A DNA stretch of 41,390 nucleotides from Candidatus Woesearchaeota archaeon (GCA_016177265.1 JACOVP010000005.1:1-41390); one strand, 5' to 3'. Shown: positions 5,569 to 40,239, numbered from the stretch's first letter. Notes: generated by a model not told the origin, from the letters alone. Numbers and translations: made by a program.

Positions 5569-5569
5569 T

Positions 5570-18469: not shown

Positions 18470-18476
18470 AAGCACG

Positions 18477-26508: not shown

Positions 26509-26865
26509 GTGAAGACCATTTCAAAGAATCAAAAACAATGTGCTACCTGGATAGGCGCTATATTACTCGTTGTAGGTCTGTTAGGGTTTGTGACGGGTGA
26601 TATGGTTCTGTGGTTTAGTGTGAACGGCACGCATACCTGGATACATCTCTTATCTGGTATTATTGGTTTGTTTGCAGGCTTAAGTGCAAAAGGTGCTTAT
26701 GCAGGAACCTACAATAAAACCTTCGGTGTTATCTACCTTGTCATTGCTGTTTTAGGTTTCCTCAGCATTGGAGGCATAGTGGATTGGTTAGCACTGAATG
26801 CAGCAGATAACTGGTTGCACTTGGTTATTGGTGCTGTCGCAGCATGGGTTGGCTTCAAAGCGTAA
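26509..26865 (+). CDS. DUF4383-like small membrane protein
   Basis: It has four hydrophobic segments with the repeated N..W.HL..G pattern. The start is GTG, so the exact start is uncertain. Confidence 0.6.
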   Translation: MKTISKNQKQCATWIGAILLVVGLLGFVTGDMVLWFSVNGTHTWIHLLSGIIGLFAGLSAKGAYAGTYNKTFGVIYLVIAVLGFLSIGGIVDWLALNAADNWLHLVIGAVAAWVGFKA

Positions 26866-26881
26866 TTAAATTTTTTTCTTT
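26866..26881 (+). terminator. T-rich tract after the DUF4383-like gene (possible archaeal oligo-T terminator)
   Basis: The tract TTTTTTTCTTT begins 6 nt after the TAA stop, between convergent genes. Confidence 0.3.
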
Positions 26882-28039: not shown

Positions 28040-28105
28040 ACTTCCTTTGGGTTAGAAGAGATTTAAATAGCCTCTGTTGTAATACGGGAGTGGGAAAAGA
28101 AAAAA

Positions 28106-28489
28106 TCATGCGGGCTGTAAGAGTTCTGCTACTCTCTCTTCAAGGTGAGCACCACGAATTAAACGCCATGCCAATCGATCACGGTCATGAAGCTGTGTTA
28201 AGTTCCTACAACCAAGTTTGGCTATATAAAGCATAAGAGTGGAGCAGGTAAGGTAATCTTTTCGTTTTAACCCATGGGATATTGCAAGGCGATGGAGATC
28301 TGTTGCTTGACTTCGAAGATGGATAACAACACCGGGATTGATCTCTCCTAGTTCACATAAGAAATCTACAGTTTCTGACTCGCTCAGAGCTGGTCTAAAG
28401 GAAGTAGTATTGCCAGAATGGTGAACATAACCGAGAAGTATGTGATTATAATAAATTTGTCGCCCTAATGATGTCTTTTCCATTAACAT
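28106..28489 (-). CDS. Hypothetical protein
   Basis: The roughly 127 aa ORF has an ambiguous start (TTG 28501, ATG 28489 or ATG 28483) preceded by a G-run. I recognise no motifs. Confidence 0.45.
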   Translation of the reverse strand: MLMEKTSLGRQIYYNHILLGYVHHSGNTTSFRPALSESETVDFLCELGEINPGVVIHLRSQATDLHRLAISHGLKRKDYLTCSTLMLYIAKLGCRNLTQLHDRDRLAWRLIRGAHLEERVAELLQPA

Positions 28490-28542
28490 CCCCCCCAACA
28501 ATGCATAGAAAAAGAAGAAAACACAACTATATAAAGACTTCG

Positions 28543-29415
28543 CTACGTCAAAATCTCCACCACTTTCGTGAAGATCAAATGAAAGTATTTCTCTGCAAAA
28601 TCCCTTCTCGGCTTGCTATAGTGGTCTAAATAATAGGTTATAAAAGGTCCGCATTTTCGCAAGATCTCCTGCATGTTCAGGTTGTAGCATCGGGCAATAT
28701 AGCGTAAGAGTTTCTTGGCTTGCTGTTCCTTATACTTCTTGAAAGGCAGAATCACTGACAGCAGAGAAAACTCAAAGTGCAACACAATACCTAAAATGTG
28801 TGGGTCTTTCTTGACTGCTCGTTTCAGTTTATCATAGAACACTGGCCGTGGACAAATCTTTTTCATCGAAAATTCCCGTTCATAGTAGTGGAGCAAGTGC
28901 TGTCCATAACCCCGTTGAATGAGCGCTGCATTCGTATACAAATCCTTCAATAACAAGACTGCATACTGTCCTATGTTTTCCAGCAGAGGAATGAATCGTT
29001 TTTGTTGCAACCTTGTCAAGAGATTGCTGTACAGTCGCAACACTTTTCTATACGATTGATGTAGTGGATAATAAGTTCCTTTCCGCATATGCTCAAGATG
29101 CATCAGTTCATGTAACAATAATCCCTCTAATGCTTGGGCATCACGCAGTAGAAAACGGTTGAAAGAAGTCAAGATGATGAGAACTAAAAACTCTTTTCCA
29201 TAGTGATAAGAAAAAGAAACCTTCTCTACAGCGCACATGCGACGAACATAATCCCTATCTTTCCGAGGAAAAGAATGCAGAATGCTGGATACATCCTGAT
29301 GCTCGTCAACAACATACACATGCACGTCCTGAGGAACACGAAGCAGCTTCTGCACTTTCTCAAGTGAACGGTGAAAGTACGGTTCTGATAAATCCCCTAA
29401 CAACGTGAGATGCAT
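28543..29415 (-). CDS. Hypothetical protein with HExxH motif (putative zinc metallopeptidase)
   Basis: The 290 aa product contains LLHELMHLEH. A TATA-like box (29438-29447) lies 27 nt upstream of the ATG. Confidence 0.6.
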   Translation of the reverse strand: MHLTLLGDLSEPYFHRSLEKVQKLLRVPQDVHVYVVDEHQDVSSILHSFPRKDRDYVRRMCAVEKVSFSYHYGKEFLVLIILTSFNRFLLRDAQALEGLLLHELMHLEHMRKGTYYPLHQSYRKVLRLYSNLLTRLQQKRFIPLLENIGQYAVLLLKDLYTNAALIQRGYGQHLLHYYEREFSMKKICPRPVFYDKLKRAVKKDPHILGIVLHFEFSLLSVILPFKKYKEQQAKKLLRYIARCYNLNMQEILRKCGPFITYYLDHYSKPRRDFAEKYFHLIFTKVVEILT

Positions 29416-29437
29416 AGAAAATATAAAAAAGTAATGC

Positions 29438-29447
29438 TATTTAAAGA
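29438..29447 (-). promoter_or_regulatory. TATA-like box for the HExxH gene
   Basis: CTTTAAATAG on the minus strand lies about 27 nt upstream of ATG 29415. Confidence 0.4.
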
Positions 29448-29451
29448 TACA

Positions 29452-30105
29452 CTATGGTCTTCCAGGTACATAGTGATGTCCTAAACATCTGGCTTCATAC
29501 CTTCTCTCTTGAACAACATCTTTGCCTCCAACGATAATTAAATCATCCCCATAAGGAACTGGTTCTCCATCGGGAAATAACCGTTGGGTAAAATAAGCAT
29601 CTTTGCCGCAACGTCGTTCCCCAGCATGACGTTTGTAAGCACAATACGCTGTCAATGATCGAATCAGTTGGGCATATGCCAGTAATTCACCCATGTGTCT
29701 CTCTGATGTCCTGAATGGAAAAGGTTCCCCTCGAAAGCTTAAATTGAGACCGCTGGCAATCACCATAATATCTCGCTTCATCGTCAGCTCACGACAAAGA
29801 TCTACAATCTTCCCATCCAAGAACTGTATTTCATCAATACCTACAACCCGAATACAAGGCTTCTCTTCTAGTACTGCAAGAATATCCTCTGCGAAAGCAG
29901 CAGTAAGACAAGGAAGCATTGCATTATTATGGGAAACCACCTTGCTTTCTCCCGTATAGCGGGTGTCCAAAGATGGTTTAAACAAAAGCACTTTTGGAGA
30001 AGCCTCTGTATGCTCATATCTGAACATCTCCCTATGAATTCTATCGCGAAGTCGCTCTGTTTTTCCAGAAAACATGCACCCCGTAATAACCTCTAACGTA
30101 GCCAT
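29452..30105 (-). CDS. tdk: Thymidine kinase
   Basis: It has the P-loop GCMFSGKT, GIDEIQFL and C-terminal Cys pairs (CAYK..RRCG, ARC). ATG 30105 has a TATA-like box 27 nt upstream. The track ORF to 30150 is an unlikely extension. Confidence 0.85.
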   Translation of the reverse strand: MATLEVITGCMFSGKTERLRDRIHREMFRYEHTEASPKVLLFKPSLDTRYTGESKVVSHNNAMLPCLTAAFAEDILAVLEEKPCIRVVGIDEIQFLDGKIVDLCRELTMKRDIMVIASGLNLSFRGEPFPFRTSERHMGELLAYAQLIRSLTAYCAYKRHAGERRCGKDAYFTQRLFPDGEPVPYGDDLIIVGGKDVVQERRYEARCLGHHYVPGRP

Positions 30106-30127
30106 ACACTTAAAAAGACAGTGAAGA

Positions 30128-30137
30128 TTTATAAAAA
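30128..30137 (-). promoter_or_regulatory. TATA-like box for tdk
   Basis: TTTTTATAAA on the minus strand lies about 27 nt upstream of ATG 30105. Confidence 0.45.
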
Positions 30138-30256
30138 TGAGTATACTCAACTATATAAAAAGGTCAAATTCCTCTGTTTCCAGCCAAAAAGAAGCTATTC
30201 TATCCATTTCTCAAACACCAGCGATAAGTATTTATACGAGTTCTGCTATAGAGGGT

Positions 30257-30267
30257 AGTGAGGGGGT
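30257..30267 (+). repeat. 11-bp direct repeat, left copy, near the left edge of the high-GC block
   Basis: AGTGAGGGGGT is identical to 36782-36792. The match extends to GGG[T/G]AGTGAGGGGGT with one mismatch. Confidence 0.6.
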
Positions 30268-30507
30268 TGAGACAGAAAACCTAGAGTGTGAAAAGAGTCC
30301 TCTCTCTCATGCTCATAGTCATAGGAACCGGGTAGGGTGGGTTTTCTGCTATGTCTTTTCCCTAACACCTCTTTTCCCCACTCTACCTCTTCCTTGACAA
30401 TTCTGGTCTTGGTGCATTCCAGTTCAAGGCTTATAGCCTGGCCCGTGCTCGAAAACTGATAGCTGGCGGACTGTCCTCCAGGTAGCCCCGTTACCACAAG
30501 TGCGTGG

Positions 30508-30532
30508 GGGGTAGTGGGCTGGACTCTACCCC
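30508..30532 (+). repeat. Perfect 7-bp stem hairpin upstream of the integrase start
   Basis: GGGGTAG (30508-30514) pairs with CTACCCC (30526-30532) across an 11-nt loop. Confidence 0.6.
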
Positions 30533-30582
30533 AGGGTGGGGGAATGGTAGTGACAGGATCTGCTCGGGGGAGGAACGAGACC

Positions 30583-32040
30583 ATGGAGATCGAGTACATT
30601 GACGTGAACGAGGTGGAGAAACGCTTCAGGCAGGCGCTGGCGAGGTTTGAGCAACGGCCGGACGTGAGCGAGGGGAACAAGGAGCTGCTCAAGCGGTTTC
30701 TGCGGGAATCATTCTTGGGGAAGACGAATCCTGGGCGGGCGAAGAAGCGAGTCGGCTTCTCGCGACTGCAGGGCTACTTGAACTACCTGTCGACCTTGAT
30801 CCGGTTCGTCCGCAAGGACCTGGACCAGGTGACGCAGGGAGACATGGAGGGCTTCATCGAGGCGCTCGAGCGGAATGAGATCCTGTCCATCCGGCCCATC
30901 ATGTATGGTCGTTCAGGATGGAAGGTCGCGAACACCCCCTTCAGCAAGAGCCACAAGCTCCACCTCAAGATGGCTGTCCGGAAGTTCTATCGGTGGCTCC
31001 TGGGCAACAATCGGGAATACCCGCCCCTGGTGGACTGGATTGAAGTGCTCCCTGTGCACCAGGAGATCCCTGCGCTCACGGAGGAGGAGGTCAGGCAGCT
31101 GCTCGGAGCCTGTTCAAGGACCGTGCACCGCGCCCTGATCCAGATGCTCTTTGACGGTGGCTTTCGGATCGCGGAGCTCCTGAATGTGCGGCTGTGTCAT
31201 GTCCAGCTCCAGTGCGTCGACGAGGAGGCCGGGCGGAAGTGCTTCCTCGTCCGCATCCCCTTCTCGAAGACCATGCCGCGAACCATTGTTCTCCCCATGG
31301 AGACCACGACCCGATGGTTGTCCTTGTGGCTCGCAGAGCATCCTGCGCAACCTGAAGTCCGGGAGGATGGCACGATCCAGTGCGACCAACTCCAAGCCCA
31401 GCTCTTTCCCATGCCGGTGAAGCGAGCTCGCACCATCCTGAAGACAGCAGGGAAACGGGCTCTGGCCAAGCGGGTCTATCCCCACCTGATCCGCCACACC
31501 TCTGCCACTTACTGGGCGAACCGCCTTCCCTACTTCAAGTTCTGCAAGCGCTTCGGCTGGACATTGACGAGCAAGATGCCCCAGCGCTACATCGACCGCC
31601 AAGGGATTGATGACCTGGACGTGGCCAGGATCTATCGGCAGACCAAGACGCCGCGGCAACCCCAGAGTGCTCCATCACTGCCATGTCCCGCGCTTGAACG
31701 GGAGGAACCTGACCCTCGCCAGACCGTTGAAGCGGATGGCCCCCCTCCACTACTGAATGAAAGGAGTGAGGGTCGAGGGCGAGCTCCAACACCGCAGGCG
31801 CCACCTCATAGTGACCTCGAACGCCTCGAGCGTCTCGGCCAGGTGCTGTTGCAGGAGCTGTGGCGACTGAAGGATGGGCAGACCGAAAACGGAACACCGG
31901 CAGAACGGGCAACAACCCTCAATACTACGCCCGTCGACGCATCGGAGGGAATGGATAGACGCCCCCGTGAACCGCTCCCTCCATGGACAACAAATCATCG
32001 GCAGGTTGTGAAGCAACAACGGAGCGTCGGATCCTGGTGA
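30583..32040 (+). CDS. Tyrosine recombinase / integrase with long Pro/Arg-rich C-terminal tail
   Basis: The catalytic pattern is present: GFRIAELLNVR (Arg), HLIRHTSATYW (HxxR) and MPQRYIDRQG (Tyr). GGAGG lies about 10 nt upstream of ATG 30583. The track start at 30514 is GTG. Confidence 0.85.
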   Translation: MEIEYIDVNEVEKRFRQALARFEQRPDVSEGNKELLKRFLRESFLGKTNPGRAKKRVGFSRLQGYLNYLSTLIRFVRKDLDQVTQGDMEGFIEALERNEILSIRPIMYGRSGWKVANTPFSKSHKLHLKMAVRKFYRWLLGNNREYPPLVDWIEVLPVHQEIPALTEEEVRQLLGACSRTVHRALIQMLFDGGFRIAELLNVRLCHVQLQCVDEEAGRKCFLVRIPFSKTMPRTIVLPMETTTRWLSLWLAEHPAQPEVREDGTIQCDQLQAQLFPMPVKRARTILKTAGKRALAKRVYPHLIRHTSATYWANRLPYFKFCKRFGWTLTSKMPQRYIDRQGIDDLDVARIYRQTKTPRQPQSAPSLPCPALEREEPDPRQTVEADGPPPLLNERSEGRGRAPTPQAPPHSDLERLERLGQVLLQELWRLKDGQTENGTPAERATTLNTTPVDASEGMDRRPREPLPPWTTNHRQVVKQQRSVGSW

Positions 32041-32100
32041 ACCACGTGCCGCAGAATGCGCGGGATGAAGAGAACGCATGTCCTTCTCAGCCCGCGAGCG

Positions 32101-32355
32101 CTAGAATTTGTACGCATCGTGGCGGTGCCGAAGCGACCGAATGAACAGTTCATCAGAAGCACGGTCATGGTCGACGAACAGGCGGTAGGAACCGATGCGG
32201 ATCTTTCCGAAGTCAACACCCTCAAGATGCTCGATGTAACGGAGGACGTCCTTGGCGATGTCCCTGTGAAGCTTCTTGAGAATCCGTGCGCGGACATGGT
32301 GCTCAAGCTTATCTAAGGTGTCTTGAGCTTCCGGACCCCATCTAATCGACGTCAT
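32101..32355 (-). CDS. RelE/ParE-superfamily toxin
   Basis: The 84 aa product has the pattern IGSYRLFVDHD...LFIRSLRHRHDAY typical of RelE/ParE toxins. An ATGA overlap links it to the upstream antitoxin gene. Confidence 0.7.
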   Translation of the reverse strand: MTSIRWGPEAQDTLDKLEHHVRARILKKLHRDIAKDVLRYIEHLEGVDFGKIRIGSYRLFVDHDRASDELFIRSLRHRHDAYKF

Positions 32356-32564
32356 TGCACGTCGTACTTCTTGATCAGGTCCTCGTTGCTCACAAACTCA
32401 GTTCGTTTACGACGACGCGATGCTGCGACTTCGGCAATCACATCGTCCGCCACGCGGAGGTCGTCTTCGTTGACAGCGTCCTGCATGAGGAGGCGGAGCT
32501 GACGAACTTCTTTCCGGAGGCCGTGCAGTTCGCGGTGGACTTGCTGGAGCGTTACCGTTGTCAT
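32352..32564 (-). CDS. Putative antitoxin partner of the RelE-like toxin
   Basis: The 70 aa helical protein is translationally coupled upstream of the toxin. A TATA-like box (32585-32595) lies 26 nt upstream of the ATG. Confidence 0.6.
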   Translation of the reverse strand: MTTVTLQQVHRELHGLRKEVRQLRLLMQDAVNEDDLRVADDVIAEVAASRRRKRTEFVSNEDLIKKYDVQ

Positions 32565-32584
32565 GAAACTCTGGAAGAGGCGCT

Positions 32585-32595
32585 CCTATAAAAAG
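32585..32595 (-). promoter_or_regulatory. TATA-like box for the island antitoxin-toxin operon
   Basis: CTTTTTATAGG on the minus strand lies about 26 nt upstream of ATG 32564. It is an isolated A/T patch in GC-rich DNA. Confidence 0.45.
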
Positions 32596-32689
32596 ATTAC
32601 GCTTGGCGCTAGGAAGGAGAGCGAGCATCTCAGGTGATGGCTTATAAGGAATGGATCGACCGAAGGGCGAATAGTGAGAACCCTGTCCG

Positions 32690-34669
32690 ATGAACATGCC
32701 ATCCCTGCTGCGAAAACTCGAACCCCTCCTTCCAAGAGAAGTGAAACGGTGGCGTCTGATGCTTCCGTTGGTGAACGAGGACACGAGGAAACTCCTGGAG
32801 CGCCAGATCATCAGCCTAGCCCACAAGCATCTTGGGAATCACAACCAGCGGCTCTTGCTGCCACCTCCGCCAGAGAAGCTGTCCAAGGGCACGTTCAACC
32901 TCGGCACGATCCTCTATGACACGGAGAAGTGGTCATTCGCCTTGACGGAAGGAGAGCTGCTGCAGAACCTTGCCATCTTCGGTCGTTCTGGTGCAGGAAA
33001 AACGAATGTGGTCTTCCATCTCCTCCAGCAGTTTCTCAAGAAAGGCATCCCGTTCCTCTTCTTCGATTGGAAACGGACAGCACGCCATCTCCTTCCTCTC
33101 TTGAAGCACCCGGTGTTGCTCTACACGCCAGGACGAAAACTCGCTCCCTTTCCCTTCAACACCTTGATCCCGCCACCTGGTCTTGAACAGCATCTCCACG
33201 TGCAGCAGGTCCTGGACATCCTGGCAGCGGCCTACACCCTGGGTGACGGTGCCACGAGTCTCATCCAGCGCGTCCTCCAGGAATGGTACACGAAGAACGC
33301 AACACCGCCCATGATCCATGACCTCGTCCAAGAACTGCAATGCCTGAATGTGAAAGGTCGGGCTCACGGGTGGCATGCTTCGGCGGTGCGTGCACTCCAA
33401 AGTCTGGACTATGCTGACCTCGTTACTTCCACTGCTGAAGATCAGGAGGCCAGGGTCGACGAACTCCTCCACCACTCGACGATCCTCGAGCTCAATGGTC
33501 TGGGCGACAACGCGAAGCAGTTCCTCATTCCATCCATGCTCCTCTGGATCTTCAACGCCCGCCTCGCCAGGAGTGACCGAGAGCAGCTCCGCTTCGTGGT
33601 CATCGTGGAAGAGGCACACCACCTGCTCTACACGCGGAAGGGCCAGGAGTCCGCGATGGAACGCTTGGTCCGTCAATGTCGGGAGCTGGGCATCGCCATG
33701 GTCATCGTCGACCAGCACCCCCACTTGATTTCCAGCGCTGCCCTGGGTAATACCTTCACCACGATCTGCCTGAACCTCAAAGATCCCCGGGACATGAATC
33801 GTGCTGCTGCCCTCTGCCTCCTCGATGAAGAGGACCGTGGACACTTGAGCACGCTGCCCGTTGGTCATGGGATTGTGAAGCTCCAGAACCGCTGGCACCA
33901 ACCCTTCCTCGTTCGATTCCCTCTGGTGCAGGTGGAGAAGGGAGCAGTCACCAATGATCGCCTTCACGCCTTCCTCATTGGCAAGAGACCACGTTCGGGA
34001 CGAAAACCGCCTTTGTCGTTGAAGGAAGAGGGCGTTCGGCAGGTTCGGTTTGTGGATGTCATTCCTTCAGAGGATGCATGCCGTCTGATCGAGGATTGTG
34101 TCCTCCATCCCTTTGACGGGGTGAAGGCACGCTACCAACGCCTGAGTTGGAGTGCGGATAAGGGAACGAGGCTGGTGAGGGAGCTGGTGGCTGCAGGACT
34201 CCTGGAGTTGGAAAGGGTTGACCTTGGCACCACGAGGAAGACCTTGCTTCGGCCCAGTCGCAGTGCTAGGCTCGCCCTTGGCCTTGACCACCATCCCCAG
34301 CATGAGTCCATCGCCCATGAGTTTTGGAAGTACCACGTCGCTGCCCAGTTTCTGGAAGCGGAGTACCAGGTCGAGATCGAGGCTCCTCGTCCAAGGGGAG
34401 GAGGACGGGTGGACGTGCTGGCCAGGAAGGGCGAGGAATCTGTTGCCATCGAAGTCGAGACTGGGAAGAGTGACGTGGTGGGGAACGTGAAAGCTGACCT
34501 GGCAGCGGGGTTCACCAGGGTGGTGGTTATCGCCACGGATGATGTTGCGAGGGAGTCCATCGAGCGACAGCTAGGGAGGGCTGGACTGCTGATGACAGAA
34601 CGAGTGATCGTCGCCGACTTGGACATGGTCCTCCGTCACCCGGCGATAGACTACCGGAGGAAGCCCTAA
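32690..34669 (+). CDS. HerA/FtsK-like (DUF87-type) P-loop ATPase fused to winged-helix and PD-(D/E)xK-like nuclease modules
   Basis: It has Walker A GRSGAGKT (32981-33004), Walker B FVVIVEEAH and VIVDQHP. The C-terminal part reads GVKARYQRL...LVRELVAAGLL (wHTH-like) followed by VDVLA...AIEVETGKS (nuclease-like). Confidence 0.85.
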   Translation: MNMPSLLRKLEPLLPREVKRWRLMLPLVNEDTRKLLERQIISLAHKHLGNHNQRLLLPPPPEKLSKGTFNLGTILYDTEKWSFALTEGELLQNLAIFGRSGAGKTNVVFHLLQQFLKKGIPFLFFDWKRTARHLLPLLKHPVLLYTPGRKLAPFPFNTLIPPPGLEQHLHVQQVLDILAAAYTLGDGATSLIQRVLQEWYTKNATPPMIHDLVQELQCLNVKGRAHGWHASAVRALQSLDYADLVTSTAEDQEARVDELLHHSTILELNGLGDNAKQFLIPSMLLWIFNARLARSDREQLRFVVIVEEAHHLLYTRKGQESAMERLVRQCRELGIAMVIVDQHPHLISSAALGNTFTTICLNLKDPRDMNRAAALCLLDEEDRGHLSTLPVGHGIVKLQNRWHQPFLVRFPLVQVEKGAVTNDRLHAFLIGKRPRSGRKPPLSLKEEGVRQVRFVDVIPSEDACRLIEDCVLHPFDGVKARYQRLSWSADKGTRLVRELVAAGLLELERVDLGTTRKTLLRPSRSARLALGLDHHPQHESIAHEFWKYHVAAQFLEAEYQVEIEAPRPRGGGRVDVLARKGEESVAIEVETGKSDVVGNVKADLAAGFTRVVVIATDDVARESIERQLGRAGLLMTERVIVADLDMVLRHPAIDYRRKP

Positions 34670-35307
34670 TGGAAACTACATACCGTGTTATCGACTTGAC
34701 GGTTAACTTCGAGAAGCGGCGATTGATCCTCCACGAGATCGAGGCCAATAAACAAGCTCTTCTCGAGCTCCTGAACCCACAAGGAGGATACAATATTGGC
34801 ATCCGAAAGGAGGCTCTCATCCTTGATTTCGCGGCGGGTCGCTTCATCGCGGAGGAGACCGGGATCATTGCTTTCCATTTTCGTGGCGCTACTATCCAAA
34901 AAGTCCAGCAACCCATTATTGCATGTACATCGCACATTTGCGAGACCTTAGGCTGGCCCAGAAACAATGAACCAATCTCCGTGAACATAGAAATCGTCTC
35001 CGAGACGACTAAAGCAAACGCTGGTTCATTTACTGCGAAGCATCTAGATGTTCCCGCCCTAGAAACCCTCCTGTCGCAGAAGATTCCCCATGCTGGGCTG
35101 ACGCTCTTCCTAACGCCATTGGATACGCAACGACCACGAGAAGATGTGCGGGTGAGAATTGAGCCACTGGCCAAGGAGCCGCATCAGAAGCTCTACGTTC
35201 GCCTCTCATTGGACGCAGAGGACACGCGAATCGCCAAAATCGAAGCGCATCTGGCTAGGTGCGATACACTTCTCGGGCAGATACAGGAGGCGATAAGCGC
35301 ATCATGA
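34669..35307 (+). CDS. Hypothetical protein (operon gene 2)
   Basis: The 212 aa ORF has an ATG that overlaps the ATPase stop (TAATG). I recognise no motifs. Confidence 0.65.
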   Translation: METTYRVIDLTVNFEKRRLILHEIEANKQALLELLNPQGGYNIGIRKEALILDFAAGRFIAEETGIIAFHFRGATIQKVQQPIIACTSHICETLGWPRNNEPISVNIEIVSETTKANAGSFTAKHLDVPALETLLSQKIPHAGLTLFLTPLDTQRPREDVRVRIEPLAKEPHQKLYVRLSLDAEDTRIAKIEAHLARCDTLLGQIQEAISAS

Positions 35308-36272
35308 GCGTTGAACGTAGAGTGACGTTGAGATTAGGGACACTCGGCGCGAGGCAGAACAGTGGGATATCTAGATGGAAGGCGGTAAGCGAGCTGGAGG
35401 ATTGGAAAGCTTTAAGAACTCTGTTGACGAGGGAAACTGTTGGATCAAAGGCATGGGAGGAGGGCCGGCGATTTGGGGAGAGTAATACACTTACGGCACG
35501 TGAACGGATGATGGAGAAGCTCGAGGATGGGAGGACAGAGGACAAAGCGCTTTACGTCGCGCTTATTCAGAAGTATGAGAAGGAGTTGCGCACTAGGGCT
35601 GTGGCCGGGGAAAACAACATAGAGAGAGAGGCGTGCATCACCCATCTAGGAGTGCTCTACGATGACAAGCCGCAGGCACTGCAGGAGTATGGGGATGTGG
35701 ATCGACAGATCCTAGAGCAGATTCTGAAAGAAGGTGGACCATTTAGACAAATCCGGTCGGTCTTTCTGGCATTGCGCAGGAGACTAGAGAAGGGGAGTGG
35801 GTTCACGTGTGCGGAGCTTGAGCAGATCCTCGAAGGTGAGCGAGTCGTCATGCCGTCAACGACGCATATGGATCCGTTTGTGCGTAGGCGCGGTAGTCGA
35901 CTGCAGGAAGAGGGCTATAGATTGTTGCTGCGGTACTTCGGTGGGAAAGTAGGGGTAAAGGTGAAGGTGTATTCCGTGCGCGAGTATCATGCTGTATGTG
36001 AGAGAGGCGACCCGGATTGGTTGATTCGAGGAGAAGAAGGGACGGTGGAAGCACGAGCATTTAGAGCGTTGCGTTCCTTCGCGGGGATGCTGGAGAGCAT
36101 GAGAGCCTGGAATAGGGTGGAAGCATCGCTGCGTACGAGGGATCCAAGCCTGAGGGAAATGCGGGGGTGGGAAGTGAAAGAGACGATGGAGCGTCTGTTT
36201 GAGCGGGTCCGCAAGGGGGTAGAGGCGAAGTATAAGAGATGGGAGGAGTTTTGGCGGGGAGTGCGGAGATAA
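35304..36272 (+). CDS. Hypothetical Arg/Glu-rich helical protein (operon gene 3)
   Basis: It is 322 aa from ATG 35304, which overlaps the upstream stop (ATGA). The track start at 35259 is GTG. I recognise no motifs. Confidence 0.65.
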   Translation: MSVERRVTLRLGTLGARQNSGISRWKAVSELEDWKALRTLLTRETVGSKAWEEGRRFGESNTLTARERMMEKLEDGRTEDKALYVALIQKYEKELRTRAVAGENNIEREACITHLGVLYDDKPQALQEYGDVDRQILEQILKEGGPFRQIRSVFLALRRRLEKGSGFTCAELEQILEGERVVMPSTTHMDPFVRRRGSRLQEEGYRLLLRYFGGKVGVKVKVYSVREYHAVCERGDPDWLIRGEEGTVEARAFRALRSFAGMLESMRAWNRVEASLRTRDPSLREMRGWEVKETMERLFERVRKGVEAKYKRWEEFWRGVRR

Positions 36273-36727
36273 TGATCGCGGTGGATTCCGATGTCTTCTT
36301 GTCCGCGAAAGTGTTCAGCGGAAAGGATGAGAGGTCGAGGAAGAGCAACGAGTTTCTGGTTGCGGTCACCGGAGGGAATATGTGCACGACAGTGATTAAT
36401 GTTTTTGAGGTGTGTGGCGTTGCCGGTCCACATCTTGAGGAGGAGGAGCTACGGAAGTGGTTGCATAACTTTCGCGGGACGTTTGGTGTACAGATTCTGT
36501 TGCCGCGAGACGCGGCTCTTCCGCTTGGTTCCTTCTTTCGGATCTTGCCAACAATATTATTTGGTAAGCTTCACAAGGGGATGCGGTTTGGAGATGCTTT
36601 GATAATAGGAATTGTGGAAGGACATCCTGAGATACGAGAATTTGTTACGTGGAATGTGAAGGATTTCGATGGGAGGACGCGTCTGCGAGTGTCATCGCCA
36701 GCGGATTACTTGGCACGGGTGAGGTGA
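36272..36727 (+). CDS. PIN-domain nuclease (VapC-like; operon gene 4)
   Basis: It is 151 aa from ATG 36272, which overlaps the upstream stop (TAATG). The PIN acidic pattern is IAVDSDVF, VFEVCG, FGDALIIG and TWNVKDFD. Confidence 0.75.
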   Translation: MIAVDSDVFLSAKVFSGKDERSRKSNEFLVAVTGGNMCTTVINVFEVCGVAGPHLEEEELRKWLHNFRGTFGVQILLPRDAALPLGSFFRILPTILFGKLHKGMRFGDALIIGIVEGHPEIREFVTWNVKDFDGRTRLRVSSPADYLARVR

Positions 36728-36781
36728 CTGACTGGGGGGAGGCGAGATTCAGGGGATCATGGGAGGCACGGTGCTGTGGGG

Positions 36782-36792
36782 AGTGAGGGGGT
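36782..36792 (+). repeat. 11-bp direct repeat, right copy, 55 nt after the PIN gene stop
   Basis: AGTGAGGGGGT is identical to 30257-30267. Confidence 0.6.
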
Positions 36793-37071
36793 GAAGGGAG
36801 CATCTCAGCGAAACCTTTTTTAAGGATGACGCCGTGCCAAGTGCATGGGCCATGTCGAGTCAGGGAGAGTCCCGCAGTATGCGCAGGAGTTGTTGAAGTC
36901 AGTTCGAGAGAAGACGTGCTACCCTCTGGTCTGGCGACAACAACCCGGCCTCGGTCACGATTCGGAAGTCAAGGTTGCCCGTCCTGGCGAGAGATGCCAT
37001 GTGTTGCTCTACCGGCCTGAGTACCGGGACTACGAGCTCCACTTCGTGGTCAGGATCAGGGAAGAGCGTGA

Positions 37072-37713
37072 TCAACACGTTCCTCGTCGGCCAATACCTG
37101 CAACGAGGTGGCAGGGCTTGGGTGTGCGGATGACCTGGTAGAGGAGAGTTGCGAGCCGTTCCATCTCGCAGGTGATCGCGCGAATCTGTGGTTCAGTGAT
37201 TCCGTCCCAATAATATGCGAGGCGGCCGAGGACGCCGGTGACCCAGCACCCGATGGCATCGGACAGCTCAGGTTCCCTTGCCTCAAGATCCTGCCACCAA
37301 CGTGCGCGAACCTTGAGATCCTGGTCCTGGGCGATCGTCCGCCAGATCAAGTCGCGGGTGACAAGCGGATTTTCTTCATCTATAAACCCTCGCTCAATAT
37401 AAACCACCTTCTTTTTTTCTCGTTTGAACAAAAACTCATAATAGGCGGACTCATCTGTATCTTGAAATCTCCCCCATCTAGTGACATCAAAAAGAAGTAC
37501 ATAGTCAAATCGTTGTTCTTTAGTATATTGAAACAATGCTAAAAATCCAGGTCTATTTGCGTTTAGACCAGTCTTGCCGGCGTCTTGAAACTCTTTGATG
37601 ATACGGATGTTATGTTTCTTAGCAAATTTTTGGACTTCTTCTCTTTGAACGGGTATTGAGAACTCTTGTTTGTCCTCTGCAGAGTGACGATAATATGCTA
37701 CAGCTGTTTTCAT
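37072..37713 (-). CDS. Serine recombinase (resolvase/invertase catalytic domain); the 3' half lies in the high-GC block, so the gene is possibly chimeric or truncated
   Basis: The N-terminus reads AVAYYRHSAEDKQEFSIPVQ (catalytic Ser region), then DAGKTGLNANRPGF and LLFDVTRWGRF. A TATA-like box lies 26 nt upstream of the ATG. Composition switches inside the ORF at about 37368, and I see no recognisable DNA-binding domain after that point. Confidence 0.6.
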   Translation of the reverse strand: MKTAVAYYRHSAEDKQEFSIPVQREEVQKFAKKHNIRIIKEFQDAGKTGLNANRPGFLALFQYTKEQRFDYVLLFDVTRWGRFQDTDESAYYEFLFKREKKKVVYIERGFIDEENPLVTRDLIWRTIAQDQDLKVRARWWQDLEAREPELSDAIGCWVTGVLGRLAYYWDGITEPQIRAITCEMERLATLLYQVIRTPKPCHLVAGIGRRGTC

Positions 37714-37734
37714 TACTTATCAAAAAATTTATTG

Positions 37735-37744
37735 ATTTATAAAT
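37735..37744 (-). promoter_or_regulatory. TATA-like box for the serine recombinase gene
   Basis: The palindromic ATTTATAAAT lies about 26 nt upstream of ATG 37713. Confidence 0.4.
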
Positions 37745-37792
37745 GTACTTCTGTCGGTAGAAATTCTAGAAGAACGTACAGAAGAGCAAAAG

Positions 37793-37802
37793 ACTTATAA
37801 GG
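37793..37802 (+). promoter_or_regulatory. TATA-like box for the small antitoxin-like ORF
   Basis: ACTTATAAGG lies about 26 nt upstream of ATG 37823. Confidence 0.35.
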
Positions 37803-37822
37803 TCCAAAGGTATAGATGTTGT

Positions 37823-37981
37823 ATGAAACAAGAAATGATTCAAATAGCAAAGAAGGAATACGAGGAACTATTAGAAGAAGTTGGTATCTTGAGAAATCCT
37901 GCAATGATGGAGGCTATCAGAGAGAGTGACGAAGCTAAAAAGAAAGGTGTAAAAACCTGGAAGCTCAAAACTCATCCATAG
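37823..37981 (+). CDS. Small antitoxin-like protein (Phd/YefM C-terminal-like EYEELLE...ILRNP pattern)
   Basis: This 52 aa ORF is not in the track. A TATA-like box (37793-37802) lies 26 nt upstream of the ATG. The sequence is MKQEMIQIAKKEYEELLEEVGILRNPAMMEAIRESDEAKKKG. Confidence 0.45.
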   Translation: MKQEMIQIAKKEYEELLEEVGILRNPAMMEAIRESDEAKKKGVKTWKLKTHP

Positions 37982-38026
37982 ATCTTGTGAGAGCCAACAG
38001 CAACCACTAACAAAAAGGTAAAACCA

Positions 38027-38449
38027 ATGGAAGTCTATATCCACACCTTTACTCCAGAACCCTATGAAGTGAGAAAACCTATTCCTGTCATACTACAAAG
38101 AGAAGGGAAAGACAACTGTACAGCAGGCTGGTATGATGCAAATATCCATTCTGGCGGTGCGAATGAACAAGAAGCATTTGACAACCTAAAATCACTCGTG
38201 CTCGATGCATTTGAGTCATTAAGAAGTGAAAAACCAGAATCTCTTGGACCTGAACCAAAAAGATGCTTAGCAGTACTGAATGAATATCTCTATCCTAAAA
38301 GAGATACCAAAGATCCGTCATCACCCCCCAATCTTAAAGAAAAACTCGCAGCAATCGATCAACTATATCATCTATTGGATGATGCAACCCCTGAACAAAG
38401 AAAGGGCTTTTTTGAAAGCATTCGCCGAAGACCTTGGCATACCGAGTAA
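38027..38449 (+). CDS. Hypothetical protein, possibly HicB/UPF0150-like fold
   Basis: The 140 aa product has the segment PVILQREGKDNCTAGWYDANIHSGGANEQEAFDNLKSLV, which resembles the beta-beta-alpha core of HicB-like antitoxins. The functional call is tentative. Confidence 0.55.
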   Translation: MEVYIHTFTPEPYEVRKPIPVILQREGKDNCTAGWYDANIHSGGANEQEAFDNLKSLVLDAFESLRSEKPESLGPEPKRCLAVLNEYLYPKRDTKDPSSPPNLKEKLAAIDQLYHLLDDATPEQRKGFFESIRRRPWHTE

Positions 38450-38533
38450 TTCTGAAATAAGGGAGGTCTCAGAGAGAGTAGCAAAACCCTTTTAAACCGA
38501 ACTCTATATTCTAATATAATGGTTAGAAGAGAT

Positions 38534-39592
38534 ATGCAAAGAATAAGAATACTGGGCGGTATAGGCATAGTCCTCTGCATACTTGCCTTCATTGTAGTAA
38601 CCCTGGTTATTCTGCAGTCTCCTGGGCCGTTGCCAGTTGGACAAGAAAATCAAACACAAGAACCACAACAAGAAGGAAATCACACAGTGGTACAAGAAGA
38701 AGAAAATGAACAACCAAAGCAGAAACTCATCTACATCCTCCATAAGGTGCCAAATGTGCTGAGCATCGTAGACTTAGAAAAAAATGAAACCCTCCAAGAG
38801 ATTACCTTAGGCAAAGGACCGCAAGAGATGTTCTATGATAAAGGAACCAATAATCTCTACATTACCAACAAAGCAGCTAACACCATCAGCGTTGTGAACC
38901 TTGAGAAGAACGAGATTGTCCGCACCATCAAGGGAGGCAATAGTCCAGAAGGCATTATAGTCACTGACAAGAAAATTTATGTCACAAATCCAGGAGATCG
39001 AGTAGTGCTCGTCATCAACAAAGCATTGGGCTCCATAGATAAAGAGATTCAGGTTGGTGAAGATCCCTCCCACATGCTGCTCAGCCAGGATCAGCGAAAG
39101 CTCTATGTGTTGAATAGGGGTTCCGATGATATTACTATTATCAACACGAATATCGATGCCTTCATCGACGTATGGTTCGCTGGAGACAATCCAGAGCGCT
39201 TCGCAATAAATCCTCATGAGCGGTTTATGTATGTAAGCAGCCTGAATGGGCTGATCACGATTCTTCCCATGAAACAACCGAAGGAATATAGGGAAATGCG
39301 TGTCGGTCTTGGCGCATCGGAAATTGCTTTTACGCCAAATAATATTCTTGCGATAACAGTGAACAGTGATGAGAACACCATATCCTTAACCAGCTTGACG
39401 CAGGAAATGCTGCTTGCAACAGTCGATGTCGGAGTAAATCCTAGTGACGTTGTGATCACTGGAGATGGAAAAACTGCCTATGTGAGCAATGCTGGTTCTA
39501 ATACCATTTCAATCATTGACTTGCAGCAGAAAATACGGATAGCAGAATTTCCTGTCAATAAAGATCCGCAACGACTAATACTGAGAGAATAA
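38534..39592 (+). CDS. Membrane-anchored YVTN-repeat beta-propeller protein
   Basis: An N-terminal TM segment is followed by repeated units of the LYITN/IYVTN/LYVLN/AYVSN ... ISVV/ITII/ISIID type. ATG 38534 (TATA-like box about 27 nt upstream) or ATG 38519 could be the start. Confidence 0.8.
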   Translation: MQRIRILGGIGIVLCILAFIVVTLVILQSPGPLPVGQENQTQEPQQEGNHTVVQEEENEQPKQKLIYILHKVPNVLSIVDLEKNETLQEITLGKGPQEMFYDKGTNNLYITNKAANTISVVNLEKNEIVRTIKGGNSPEGIIVTDKKIYVTNPGDRVVLVINKALGSIDKEIQVGEDPSHMLLSQDQRKLYVLNRGSDDITIINTNIDAFIDVWFAGDNPERFAINPHERFMYVSSLNGLITILPMKQPKEYREMRVGLGASEIAFTPNNILAITVNSDENTISLTSLTQEMLLATVDVGVNPSDVVITGDGKTAYVSNAGSNTISIIDLQQKIRIAEFPVNKDPQRLILRE

Positions 39593-39618
39593 GGGGAGTG
39601 GAGTTCTTAGAAAAAAGA

Positions 39619-39711
39619 TTAGATATCAGTAAAGACCTTGAATATAAAGTACATAATGACCATACCAAAACCAATCCACGCTGCCGTGTCCCAAAAGTTG
39701 TCCCAGTTCAT
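39619..39711 (-). CDS. Possible 30-aa single-TM micropeptide
   Basis: The ORF MNWDNFWDTAAWIGFGMVIMYFIFKVFTDI has an A/T box 25 nt upstream of its ATG. There is no other support. Confidence 0.25.
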   Translation of the reverse strand: MNWDNFWDTAAWIGFGMVIMYFIFKVFTDI

Positions 39712-39822
39712 ACAACAGAGAGAAAAGTTGGAATTTATGAACTTTGCGGCTAAAAAGGCGAAAAATCCGTAGAAAGAGGCGGAAAGATTCCAAGAGAACA
39801 GTTCATCGAATCTTGCTATTAT

Positions 39823-40239
39823 TTATTGTTGTTGGTTTACTCTTACTTCTAAACCTTCATTTCTTTTCCGAACTCCTAATCTTCCTAACTCATACAATCC
39901 AGAAGCTACATTGAGTCCTAGTAAAACTGCTACAGGGATATAGTTTTTGTTTTGAAATAAATCCACTGCAGAATAAAGACAAACACCCATATCAGTTAGA
40001 GAACCAATAAAAATCCCTAATTGCCACCCGCTGCCAGCTATAGTATCTTGATCCCATACTACTTCACATCTGTCTGCTAGGGTCTGATCTTCTCTACACT
40101 TTCTTATAAACGTAGGAATCCGAAACAGTAAAGCAACTGCACCATACAATCCTTTGACGAAATACTGCGAAAGTTCTCCTATTTGTTTTCTAGGTAGTGC
40201 ATCCCAGAGTCTTTGTTCAACAGATTTGTAGTCAGTCAT
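39823..40239 (-). CDS. Hypothetical membrane protein
   Basis: The roughly 138 aa ORF has several hydrophobic segments. ATG 40239 is the likely start, since the track start at 40248 is GTG. An A/T box lies upstream. Confidence 0.55.
   Translation of the reverse strand: MTDYKSVEQRLWDALPRKQIGELSQYFVKGLYGAVALLFRIPTFIRKCREDQTLADRCEVVWDQDTIAGSGWQLGIFIGSLTDMGVCLYSAVDLFQNKNYIPVAVLLGLNVASGLYELGRLGVRKRNEGLEVRVNQQQ

What the first reader, a model, noticed from the sequence alone, without database searches (positions are those of the whole stretch)
30250..37368. Sharp-edged high-GC block of about 7.1 kb inside an AT-rich archaeal chromosome
By eye the sequence changes within a few nucleotides from A/T-rich DNA (mid to upper 30s % GC) to roughly 60 % GC at about 30250, and back at about 37368. 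Protein composition flips in parallel, from Lys/Ile/Asn-rich to Arg/Ala/Gly/Pro-rich. The content is typical of a mobile element: a tyrosine integrase at one end, a RelE-type TA pair and a nuclease/ATPase operon. The antitoxin gene has an isolated A/T box 26 nt upstream of its ATG. That matches the geometry of host genes and argues for an archaeal donor rather than bacterial contamination. The lack of amelioration suggests recent acquisition from a compositionally very different lineage.
Basis: partly seen in the sequence, partly recalled or inferred. Interest (0 to 1): 0.8.

Follow-up and report, generated by a model that had tools for sequence, protein, structure and literature searches.

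The report
Foreign high-GC island in Woesearchaeota genome
A roughly 7 kb stretch of foreign, GC-rich DNA carrying its own integrase sits right after a conserved, previously undescribed small RNA gene in a tiny (DPANN) archaeon's genome; it is a real genomic island of a familiar kind, not an assembly error, and its donor is unknown.

Summary
The high-GC block is real. GC is 57% against about 40% in the flanks, GC3 is 0.67 against 0.34, and tetranucleotide distance is 3-4 times background. The right edge is sharp at 37360-37369, as reported. The true left edge is 30400, not 30250. The stretch 30263-30399 is a host non-coding RNA of about 48% GC, conserved in at least 16 DPANN loci, with covariation support and no Rfam family.

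Chimerism is very unlikely. Independent single-run assemblies from three sequencing runs span both junctions. At least 10 related loci have an empty site, where the RNA gene is followed directly by the beta-propeller gene that lies 8.1 kb away in the window.

The block encodes an intact tyrosine integrase, a ParE/RelE toxin-antitoxin pair, a HerA/DndH-like ATPase with a nuclease-like C-terminal domain, and three or four orphan genes. Its right end abuts an AT-rich serine recombinase gene cut at codon ~117. That gene belongs to a 1.1 kb AT-rich segment also missing from relatives, so the site was hit at least twice. TGACAA occurs at both junctions (P about 0.03).

Integrase and ATPase are closest (50-60%) to Planctomycetota proteins. 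Related integrases also sit after the same RNA in a 56-60% GC contig and next to a tRNA in a Nanoarchaeota MAG. The donor's domain is therefore open.

The parts
29452..30105 (-). Host thymidine kinase gene, the left flank of the insertion site
   Evidence: Pfam TK recorded on the Logan gene call. It is 61% identical to the homologue in Woesearchaeota MAG L001 and syntenic with it.
30263..30399 (+). Conserved host non-coding RNA gene (5' end approximate), ending ...CCUUGACA. It is the integration target and has no Rfam family.
   Evidence: About 95% nucleotide identity to L001 over 105 nt, although neighbouring proteins are only 60-84% identical. Sixteen homologues were aligned. The 18-bp 3' hairpin is 98.6% paired, has 5 pairs with compensatory changes, and no shuffle out of 500 reaches the observed covariation score. 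There is no Rfam match. A TTTATAC box lies about 25 nt upstream.
30395..30400 (.). Left copy of TGACAA, a candidate crossover core or a microhomology, at the host/insert junction
   Evidence: the same 6-mer straddles both junctions. P is about 0.03 for random pairs of 16-nt windows.
30400..30465 (+). Left arm of the insert, about 50% GC. It is shared with a related DPANN contig (L102) at the same position after the RNA gene.
   Evidence: local alignment score 34 against 14.6 +/- 2.0 for shuffles. It is absent from the empty sites in L001, L092, L105 and L090.
30583..32040 (+). Tyrosine integrase, 485 aa (alternative start at 30544). The gene is not split by integration. It has a C-terminal tail of about 110 aa that homologues lack.
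   Evidence: Pfam Phage_integrase 1.4e-10. Weak XerA/XerC/XerD matches. Identical to P0160, which NCBI labels Candidatus Woesearchaeota archaeon. The R...K...HxxR...W...Y motifs can be read directly in the sequence. Homologues cover only 72-75% of the query.
32101..32355 (-). ParE/RelE-family toxin, 84 aa
   Evidence: Pfam ParE_toxin 7.6e-5, 23.7 bits against a cut-off of 23. PHROG RelE-like toxin 6e-9.
32352..32564 (-). Putative antitoxin, 70 aa, overlapping the toxin start by 4 nt. TTTTTATA lies at -30 to -23.
   Evidence: Position and size. There is only a weak Arc-like hit, E = 0.046. Upstream sequence is shown.
32759..34669 (+). HerA/FtsK-superfamily ATPase (Walker A motif GRSGAGKTN) with a winged-helix domain and a PD-(D/E)xK-like C-terminal domain. 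An alternative start is at 32690.
   Evidence: Pfam DUF87. PADLOC mad8, HerA and DndH matches, and NCBIfam CedD, HerA and TraC matches. The AlphaFold2 model has pLDDT 89. Foldseek finds HerA 4d2i, the DndH C-domain 7es4 (TM 0.76), SIR2-HerA, VirB4 and TrwB. The C-terminus gives weak Cas4, CoiA_nuc and AHJR hits. Start 32759 is the gene call P0001.
34669..35307 (+). Orphan gene, 212 aa. Its ATG shares one base with the ATPase stop codon.
   Evidence: Called in the independent Logan contig L081. No family match in Pfam, NCBIfam, PHROGs or PADLOC.
35304..36272 (+). Orphan gene, 322 aa
   Evidence: Gene call in L081. No family match.
36272..36727 (+). Orphan gene, 151 aa
   Evidence: Gene call in L081. 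No family match.
36845..37141 (+). Possible 98-aa gene near the right end of the block. Whether it is a real gene is uncertain.
   Evidence: Gene call in L081. No significant family match. It overlaps the GC-rich tail of the hybrid recombinase ORF.
37359..37364 (.). Right copy of TGACAA at the junction between the block and the recombinase gene
   Evidence: The junction position comes from the protein alignment and the GC change point at 37369.
37366..37713 (-). AT-rich serine recombinase gene remnant, about codons 1-116. The reading frame runs on by chance into the GC block down to 37072, giving a 213-aa hybrid ORF.
   Evidence: The Pfam Resolvase match covers residues 4-116, which is profile positions 1-108 of 145. 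Homology to the family (P0121, 74% identical) stops at ...FIDEENPLV. The missing 3' part is not at the left junction.
37823..38449 (+). Two small AT-rich genes (52 aa at 37823-37981 and 140 aa at 38027-38449). They belong to the same AT-rich segment, 37361 to about 38478, which is also absent from the empty sites of relatives.
   Evidence: ORFs. GC3 is 0.31. No homologues in the related loci. A faint Phd/YefM hit for the 52-aa protein.
38519..39592 (+). Host YNCE-like beta-propeller gene, the right flank of the insertion site
   Evidence: Pfam Lactonase/YNCE. In L001, L090, L092, L105 and others its homologue starts 40-170 nt after the RNA gene.

Best explanation
The block is a genuine integrated genomic island of about 6.96 kb (window 30400 to about 37360) in the chromosome of a Woesearchaeota (DPANN) archaeon. 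It most likely arrived as a circular integrative element. Its own tyrosine integrase is encoded intact at the left end, so it is not of the SSV type, in which integration splits the integrase gene. I infer that this integrase recombined the element into the 3' end of a conserved structured small RNA gene lying between the thymidine kinase gene and a beta-propeller gene. This is the same logic as tRNA-targeting islands.

The site had already been visited. A 1.1 kb AT-rich segment (serine recombinase remnant plus two small genes) is also missing from relatives. The GC block now abuts the recombinase gene at codon ~117. TGACAA is present at both junctions and is either the crossover core or a microhomology.

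The cargo is a ParE/RelE toxin-antitoxin pair, a HerA/DndH-like DNA-translocating ATPase fused to a nuclease-like domain, and three or four orphan genes. The toxin-antitoxin pair lies between the integrase and the ATPase, which are translationally coupled neighbours in relatives. This cargo is more likely a stabilisation and anti-invader (defence) set than a virus.

The immediate donor was a much more GC-rich organism. Whether it was a GC-rich archaeon carrying the same RNA gene or a bacterium (Planctomycetota-like) is not settled.

Shown: foreignness, boundaries, empty sites, junction support, gene identities. Inferred: integrase-mediated mechanism, order of events, cargo function, recency.
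For: 1. Composition. GC, GC3 and tetranucleotide content shift sharply.

2. Independent junction support. L085 (run SRR12113430) equals window 26624-30664 and spans the left junction. L083 (run SRR12113384) equals window 37035-40101 at 100% identity and spans the right junction. L081 and L114 cover the interior. L085 carries a different SNP haplotype in the flank, so it is an independent population. Only 6 nt are shared at the two junctions, so a false k-mer join (k = 31) cannot explain them.

3. Empty sites. The order TK - RNA - propeller, or RNA - propeller, is conserved in L001, L090, L092, L094, L095, L100, L104, L105, L108, L110 and L111, with 40-170 nt between the RNA and the propeller gene. 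In the window that gap is 8.1 kb.

4. The junction lies 0-1 nt after the closing helix of an RNA with covariation support.

5. Recurrence. A homologous integrase (45% over 73 aa) lies about 150 nt after the same RNA in L097. L102 shares the first 65 nt of the insert at the same position. In a Nanoarchaeota MAG a homologous integrase (50%) sits exactly where GC jumps from 30% to 57%, next to an intron-containing tRNA.

6. The integrase motifs are intact.

7. The integrase-ATPase pair is a conserved adjacent module in L082 and L088.

8. The ATPase fold matches HerA and DndH. There are no relatives among 2.9 million viral contigs.
Against: - No long flanking direct repeat or terminal inverted repeat was found. 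The TGACAA repeat is only 6 nt, with P about 0.03.
- The right end does not restore host sequence. It abuts a truncated gene whose other half is absent. A simple one-step integration is therefore not sufficient, and a deletion or an earlier rearrangement must be assumed.
- The 65-nt left arm could belong to the older AT-rich element rather than to the GC block. L102 continues at 44% GC.
- L097 and L102 are very short contigs (1.1-1.2 kb).
- Two Logan contigs stop at 30367. I attribute this to the RNA core being shared between species in the same sample, but that is an inference.
- Read coverage and an excised circular form could not be examined.
Confidence: 0.8

Rival explanations
1. Assembly or binning artefact. 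A 7 kb piece of a GC-rich bacterium's genome, for example a planctomycete from the same sample, was joined by error into an archaeal contig.
For: The contig comes from a metagenome-assembled genome. The closest homologues of the integrase and the ATPase that carry an organism name are from Planctomycetota. Two per-run contigs end at 30367, and the interior contigs end inside the block.
Against: Two independent false joins on the same 7 kb piece would be needed. Each junction is reproduced in a separate single-run assembly made with another assembler: L085 for the left and L083 for the right, the latter at 100% identity. L085 also has a different flank haplotype. The two sides share no k-mer-length sequence at the junctions. 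The left junction falls exactly at the end of an RNA gene, with an integrase next to it, and the same arrangement is seen in L097 and L112.
Confidence: 0.04
2. Direct cross-domain transfer. The element came straight from a bacterium (Planctomycetota-like) into the archaeon.
For: The integrase is 54% identical to that of Fontivita pretiosa (an isolate genome) and 50-51% to Phycisphaerales MAGs. The ATPase is 59% identical to one on a 340 kb Planctomycetes contig and 49% to Brocadiales. The adjacent pair is conserved in those bacteria. Those bacterial loci are 60-63% GC, similar to the block. GGAGG-type ribosome-binding sites precede several block genes, whereas host genes are leaderless.
Against: The nearest homologues are only 55-60% identical, so no actual donor has been sampled. 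The integrase tree is star-like. The integration target is an archaeal RNA gene, and a related integrase occupies the same RNA in another, GC-rich, archaeal-looking contig, which has a TATA box 25 nt upstream of the RNA. That pattern fits an element lineage already adapted to archaea. The antitoxin has a TATA-like box at archaeal spacing.
Confidence: 0.3
3. The block did not arrive by site-specific integration. It entered by illegitimate, microhomology-mediated recombination that replaced part of an older AT-rich element, and the integrase is only cargo.
For: Only 6 nt are shared at the junctions. No att-length repeats exist. The right junction is inside a gene and the displaced DNA is missing. 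In the bacterial loci the integrase is translationally coupled to the ATPase inside defence islands, so it may have a role other than mobility.
Against: The left junction lies precisely at the 3' end of a small RNA gene with the integrase gene adjacent. This arrangement recurs in L097 and, with a tRNA, in L112. A 6-8 bp identical overlap flanking the insert is what tyrosine recombinases leave.
Confidence: 0.15

Closest known systems
Genomic islands and integrative elements that target the 3' end of tRNA or tmRNA genes through a tyrosine integrase, including archaeal pNOB8-type (non-split) integrases
   Same: The integrase gene lies at the boundary next to a small structured RNA gene. Composition is foreign. 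Related genomes have empty sites. A short identical sequence sits at both ends. The cargo includes a toxin-antitoxin pair and defence-like genes.
   Different: The target is not a tRNA or tmRNA. It is an undescribed RNA of about 140 nt with no Rfam family. The repeat is only 6 nt. The right end abuts a truncated gene of another element rather than restored host sequence.
SSV-type archaeal integrative elements, in which the integrase gene is split by integration
   Same: An archaeal host, and integration at an RNA gene.
   Different: The integrase here is intact (485 aa, one ORF) and is not partitioned. The gene that is cut at the right junction is a serine recombinase of different composition, and its other half is not at the opposite junction.
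[quoted passage not shown]
   Same: Small elements of about 10 kb that integrate in RNA genes and combine a tyrosine integrase with a single FtsK/HerA-superfamily DNA translocase.
   Different: No replication gene or Tra/Spd set was recognised. The ATPase here carries a nuclease-like C-terminal domain and is structurally nearest to HerA and DndH rather than TraB. No transfer function is shown.
HerA-based anti-phage systems (SIR2-HerA/Nezha, DUF4297-HerA, DndFGH, TdpAB)
   Same: The ATPase core folds like HerA and the DndH C-domain. The bacterial homologues lie in defence islands alongside Dnd, TIR/ThsB, Mrr and restriction-modification genes.
   Different: All sequence scores are far below the family cut-offs. 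The partner here is a tyrosine integrase, and the nuclease-like domain is fused to the ATPase. No known system has this architecture in the libraries searched.
Bacterial-derived genes in DPANN archaea (for example PMC8204110, PMC7414124)
   Same: A DPANN genome carrying genes whose nearest relatives are bacterial.
   Different: Here the transfer vehicle itself is preserved, with integrase, boundaries and unameliorated composition, and the insertion site can be defined to the nucleotide.

Membership tests
Integrase-mediated genomic island at a small RNA gene | Tyrosine integrase gene at one boundary, with catalytic residues present | tested here: met
   Pfam Phage_integrase 1.4e-10. The gene starts 145-184 nt inside the left junction. 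The R, K, HxxR, W and Y motifs are readable in the sequence.
Integrase-mediated genomic island at a small RNA gene | Insertion next to the 3' end of a structured RNA gene | tested here: met
   The junction 30399|30400 lies 1 nt after the closing helix of an RNA supported by covariation in 16 sequences. The RNA is not a tRNA.
Integrase-mediated genomic island at a small RNA gene | Flanking direct repeats (att core duplication) | tested here: inconclusive
   Only TGACAA (6 nt) occurs at both junctions, with P about 0.03. No repeat of 12 nt or more was found, and local alignments of the two ends are not above shuffles.
Integrase-mediated genomic island at a small RNA gene | Absence from related genomes (empty site) | tested here: met
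   Eleven related loci have the RNA gene followed directly by the propeller gene. These relatives are distant (60-85% amino-acid identity). No same-species empty site was found.
Integrase-mediated genomic island at a small RNA gene | Excision to a circular form | not testable with these tools
   This needs read-level data.
Assembly chimera | Junctions not reproducible in independent assemblies or reads | tested here: not met
   L085 spans the left junction and L083 spans the right junction. Both come from other runs.
SSV-type split-integrase element | Recombinase gene partitioned into N and C parts at the two ends of the insert | tested here: not met
   The tyrosine integrase is intact. The C-terminal part of the cut serine recombinase is absent from all frames at the left junction.
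Type II ParE/RelE toxin-antitoxin pair | Small toxin of the ParE/RelE fold preceded by a small overlapping antitoxin gene | tested here: met
   The toxin scores 23.7 bits against a cut-off of 23 and matches the PHROG RelE-like family at 6e-9. The antitoxin overlaps the toxin by 4 nt but has no family match. Activity was not tested.
HerA/FtsK-superfamily ATPase | Walker A/B ATPase core with a HerA-like fold | tested here: met
   The Walker A motif GRSGAGKTN is present. Pfam DUF87 matches. The model has pLDDT 89 and matches HerA 4d2i at E = 1e-14 and the DndH C-domain at TM 0.76.
Known HerA-containing defence systems (SIR2-HerA, DUF4297-HerA, DndFGH, MADS) | Presence of the system's partner genes and scores above the model cut-offs | tested here: not met
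   No partner genes were found in PADLOC. The ATPase scores (38-50 bits) cover only the core. NCBIfam scores are far below the cut-offs.
Functional serine recombinase (AT-rich gene at the right edge) | Complete catalytic domain plus a DNA-binding domain | tested here: not met
   Only profile positions 1-108 of 145 are present. Homology ends at the junction.
Provirus | Virus hallmark genes, or relatives among viral contigs | tested here: not met
   No structural genes were found. The ATPase family has no relatives in IMG/VR. PHROG hits are limited to the integrase, the toxin and the generic ATPase core.

The most novel reading that the evidence does not exclude
A family of integrative elements built around a tyrosine integrase and a HerA-nuclease ATPase circulates across the bacteria/archaea boundary, between Planctomycetota and DPANN archaea. 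In DPANN archaea it uses, as its attachment site, the 3' end of a previously undescribed, widely conserved structured RNA of about 140 nt with an almost invariant 34-nt pyrimidine-rich loop. The window would then capture a very recent cross-lineage hop, and the RNA itself would be a new archaeal RNA family.
Probability: 0.3. Interest if true: 0.7.

Novelty: new member of a known kind. Interest (0 to 1): 0.5.

Why it matters
DPANN archaea have tiny genomes and depend on other cells, and many of their genes look borrowed. The vehicles of that borrowing are rarely seen. Here the vehicle is preserved: an unameliorated island with its integrase, a nucleotide-level insertion site, empty sites in relatives, and a second analogous case in another DPANN genome.

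This gives a concrete and testable route for gene flow into these organisms. That flow possibly comes from bacteria. It also shows that sharp GC switches in DPANN MAG contigs should not be discarded automatically as contamination.

As a by-product, the work uncovers a conserved structured RNA of unknown function in Woesearchaeota-like archaea that acts as a recombination hot spot.

Tried and rejected
- Exact-protein look-ups with my own start codons failed for the long ATPase ORF, the 290-aa host gene and the 498-aa integrase. They succeeded only with the start codons that the public gene calls use.
- A literature search for the run accessions found nothing, so the sampling site is unknown.
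- No tRNA or Rfam family is present in the window, at the junction, or in six homologous loci.
- Searches for direct and inverted repeats and local alignment of the two ends gave nothing above shuffles. The 20-nt inverted pair 30463/37326 is not significant.
- I looked for the missing C-terminal half of the serine recombinase at the left junction, testing a split-gene (SSV-like) model. It is absent. The frame that stays open through the antisense strand of the RNA gene is not homologous to the family.
- A second match to the RNA 3' end, at 22492, lies inside a small coding gene and is chance.
- tblastn of the ATPase against plasmids gave only distant hits of 22-26% identity, which say nothing about the donor.
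- No relatives of the ATPase or copies of the RNA motif exist in viral contigs.
- Cluster look-up of ten NCBI homologues returned no organism names.
- The idea that the left arm is shared with L097 was rejected. Only L102 is significantly similar.
- An NJ tree of 100 integrases did not group the two DPANN-borne integrases together.
- The orphan genes gave no family match even at E = 10.
- My first guess that the 151-aa protein is a PIN domain has no support.

Full report
**Observation.**
A 500-nt profile shows 33-45% GC across the window except 30.5-37.5 kb, where GC is 53-62%. The mean is 39.8% for 1-30200, 57.1% for 30430-37360 and 40.4% to the right.

A two-segment likelihood scan puts the right change point at 37369 (2-lnL interval 37356-37396). 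The same scan puts the left change point at 30436 (interval 30376-30465), not at 30250. The stretch 30251-30430 is intermediate at 48-49% GC.

GC3 is 0.34 in 25 host genes and 0.67 in seven block genes. Lys+Ile+Asn falls from 20.7% to 12.5% and Arg doubles, but Ala, Gly and Pro do not change. The tetranucleotide distance from the host mean is 4.5-5.3 inside the block and 1.0-1.7 elsewhere. The anomaly is therefore real and far beyond the window's own variation, but the left coordinate and part of the amino-acid claim need correcting.

**Host.**
The window is an entire 41,390-nt NCBI contig labelled Candidatus Woesearchaeota archaeon. This follows from the integrase, P0160, which is 100% identical and whose longest contig is 41,390 nt.

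The flanks encode central-metabolism enzymes. They are syntenic with a Woesearchaeota MAG contig, L001, and with several metagenome contigs at 60-85% amino-acid identity. Host genes have a TATA-like box 23-32 nt before the ATG and no ribosome-binding site, which is the archaeal leaderless pattern.

**Not a chimera.**
Logan assemblies are made per sequencing run with a different assembler. They reproduce the structure as follows:
- L085 (SRR12113430) equals window 26624-30664 and crosses the left junction.
- L083 (SRR12113384) equals window 37035-40101 at 100% identity and crosses the right junction.
- L081 (SRR12113383) equals 31203-37243 at 100% identity, and L114 (SRR12113384) equals 30454-33954. 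Both cover the interior.

L085 differs from the window by six clustered SNPs in a flank gene, so it represents another population that carries the same junction. The sequences on the two sides of each junction share at most 6 nt, which cannot create a false join in a k = 31 graph.

Two contigs stop at 30367. That position is where a stretch of about 40 nt begins that is identical in many species' copies of the RNA described below. I read this stop as an inter-species repeat break. That reading is an inference.

**Empty site and true left boundary.**
In L001 the thymidine kinase gene is followed after about 500 nt by the homologue of the window's beta-propeller gene (38519-39592). In the window these two genes are 8.4 kb apart.

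Nucleotide alignment shows that the window matches L001 from the kinase gene up to 30399-30402. A core of about 95% identity runs over 105 nt and ends ...CCTTGACA. Neighbouring proteins are only 60-84% identical, and a 2-nt indel excludes coding.

A 20-nt probe from this core found 23 metagenome loci, of which 18 are clear homologues. Eleven related loci (ten of these plus L001) have the propeller gene 40-170 nt after GACA. Four of them, L001, L090, L092 and L108, also carry the complete kinase gene on the other side, and L105 carries its start at the end of the locus. Homology on the right resumes only at about 38478, at the propeller promoter motif AAAACCCTTTTAAAC.

The inserted DNA is therefore 30400 to about 38478. 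It consists of the GC block and a 1.1 kb AT-rich tail.

**The RNA.**
Sixteen sequences were aligned. They share these features:
- a TATA box about 25 nt upstream of a GGGGG start;
- an AAAAGAG motif;
- a variable hairpin;
- the motif UCAUAGUCA;
- an 18-bp hairpin closed by GUCA/UGAC, with an almost invariant 34-nt pyrimidine-rich loop.

RNAalifold and pair counting give 98.6% paired cells and five pairs with compensatory changes. No shuffle out of 500 reaches the observed covariation score, and versions with the 3' partner slid by 1-3 columns pair at only 41-65%. No Rfam family matches at any threshold and ARAGORN finds no tRNA. The function is unknown. The GC block begins one nucleotide after the closing helix.

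**Right boundary.**
The minus-strand ORF 37072-37713 starts as an AT-rich serine recombinase. Pfam Resolvase matches residues 4-116, which is profile positions 1-108 of 145. Alignment with family members (best 74% identity) shows that homology stops at ...FIDEENPLV, at about nucleotide 37360. The remaining 97 codons are a chance open frame in GC-rich DNA. The missing part of the gene is not at the left junction in any frame.

This remnant and two small genes (52 and 140 aa; GC3 0.31) are absent from all relatives. They form an older, host-like insertion at the same spot.

TGACAA occurs at 30395-30400 and at 37359-37364, straddling both junctions. Random pairs of 16-nt windows share a 6-mer 3% of the time. 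This would fit a tyrosine-recombinase overlap region if, before the insertion, the recombinase remnant already abutted the RNA. It would equally fit a microhomology. No longer repeats exist.

**Content.**
In order, the block encodes:
- A tyrosine integrase with all catalytic motifs, and a C-terminal tail of about 110 aa that homologues lack.
- A ParE/RelE toxin with an overlapping upstream antitoxin.
- A 636-659 aa ATPase.
- Genes of 212, 322 and 151 aa, and perhaps 98 aa, with no match in Pfam, NCBIfam, PHROGs or PADLOC.

The ATPase has a Walker A motif and DUF87/HerA signatures. An AlphaFold2 model built from 51 sequences has pLDDT 89. It superposes on Sulfolobus HerA, the DndH C-domain (TM 0.76), SIR2-HerA, TdpA, VirB4 and TrwB. 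Its C-terminal 200 residues form a winged-helix region plus an alpha/beta domain carrying a D...ExE...K pattern, with faint Cas4, CoiA and AHJR hits.

In two GC-rich loci the integrase and the ATPase are overlapping neighbours inside islands of defence genes (Dnd, TIR/ThsB, Mrr, restriction-modification). One locus is a 340 kb Planctomycetes contig and the other is an unlabelled Logan contig. In the window the toxin-antitoxin pair has been inserted between them. The ATPase family has no relatives among 2.9 million viral contigs. I infer a non-viral integrative island whose cargo serves stabilisation and probably defence. That function is not shown.

**Donor.**
The nearest homologues are only 55-60% identical, so the donor has not been sampled.

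Homologues that carry an organism name are:
- Planctomycetes and Brocadiales for the ATPase.
- Fontivita pretiosa and Phycisphaerales for the integrase.
- One Nanoarchaeota MAG for the integrase.

The Nanoarchaeota locus, L112, repeats the pattern. AT-rich archaeal DNA at 30% GC, containing an arginyl-tRNA synthetase gene and an intron-containing tRNA, switches to 53-62% GC exactly at the tRNA, and the integrase homologue is the first gene after the switch.

A 1.1 kb contig of 56-60% GC, L097, carries the same RNA with an archaeal TATA box. About 150 nt later, in the same orientation, it has an integrase N-terminus 45% identical to the window's. L102, from a different Woesearchaeota-like organism, shares the first 65 nt of the insert at the same place but continues at 44% GC.

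The integrase tree is star-like, and the two DPANN-borne integrases are not sisters.

These data support site-specific targeting of the RNA by this integrase family, and repeated entry into DPANN genomes. They leave open whether the last donor was a GC-rich archaeon with the same RNA or a bacterium. I slightly favour the archaeon, because the attachment site must match.

Several block genes instead have GGAGG motifs, so it settles nothing.

**Verdict.**
This is a real, recently acquired integrative genomic island of a known general kind. Its boundaries are corrected to 30400-37360. Its target is an interesting new RNA, and a cross-domain origin is possible but unproven.

Noticed in passing
window 30263-30399 (+); homologues in L001, L090, L092, L094, L095, L097, L099, L100, L102-L108, L110, L111: An undescribed conserved structured RNA of about 140-170 nt with no Rfam family. 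It has an 18-bp hairpin with covariation support and an almost invariant 34-nt loop, UUUUCUGCUAUGUCUUUUCCCUAACACCUCUUUU. It is nearly always followed by a YNCE-like beta-propeller gene.
   Followed up: partly
L112 9632-9760 and onward (Nanoarchaeota MAG GCA_038045705.1, contig JBBSXO010000005.1): A second DPANN contig in which GC jumps from about 30% to about 57% at an intron-containing tRNA. A homologue of the window's integrase is the first gene after the switch. The GC-rich part runs for at least 11 kb towards the contig end and includes ParB and a protein kinase.
   Followed up: partly
window 37072-37713 (-): The 213-aa ORF, which is also called as a gene in public data, is a hybrid. About 116-118 codons are a serine recombinase, and the rest is a chance open frame in GC-rich DNA. 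It is likely to be mis-annotated as a complete resolvase.
   Followed up: yes
window 31699-32040: The integrase has a low-complexity C-terminal extension of about 110 aa, rich in Pro, Arg and Gln, that homologues lack. It lies where a toxin-antitoxin cassette separates the integrase from the ATPase gene that overlaps it in relatives.
   Followed up: partly
window 37823-38449: Two small AT-rich genes (52 aa with a faint Phd/YefM-like match, and 140 aa) lie next to the recombinase remnant. They may be another toxin-antitoxin-like pair from an older element. They are absent from all related loci.
   Followed up: no
window 1363-20893: A dense cluster of TCA-cycle and related genes: citrate synthase, PrpD-like protein, isocitrate, malate and glutamate dehydrogenases, succinate dehydrogenase flavoprotein, fumarase, malic enzyme and an acyl-CoA/succinyl-CoA ligase-like gene. 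ComA is also there. This is rich metabolism for a DPANN genome.
   Followed up: no
window 22482-22710 (-): A small unannotated ORF of about 75 aa (MTTKKQKFIIWYDEEGDYLEV...) in an otherwise AT-rich intergenic stretch. It gave a chance match to the RNA 3' end.
   Followed up: no
L082 and L088 (GC-rich contigs; L082 is labelled Planctomycetes): A tyrosine integrase and the HerA-nuclease ATPase form an overlapping gene pair inside defence islands (Dnd, TIR/ThsB, Mrr, BsuBI/PstI restriction-modification, HD). Matching contig lengths in the two hit lists suggest at least four more such pairs. The pair may be an undescribed functional module rather than just a mobility gene plus cargo.
   Followed up: partly
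window 28899-28969 and 29247-29288: Clustered SNPs (6-7 within 40-70 nt) distinguish the populations in different sequencing runs, inside the 290-aa gene of unknown function. This is a local hypervariable patch in otherwise identical sequence.
   Followed up: no
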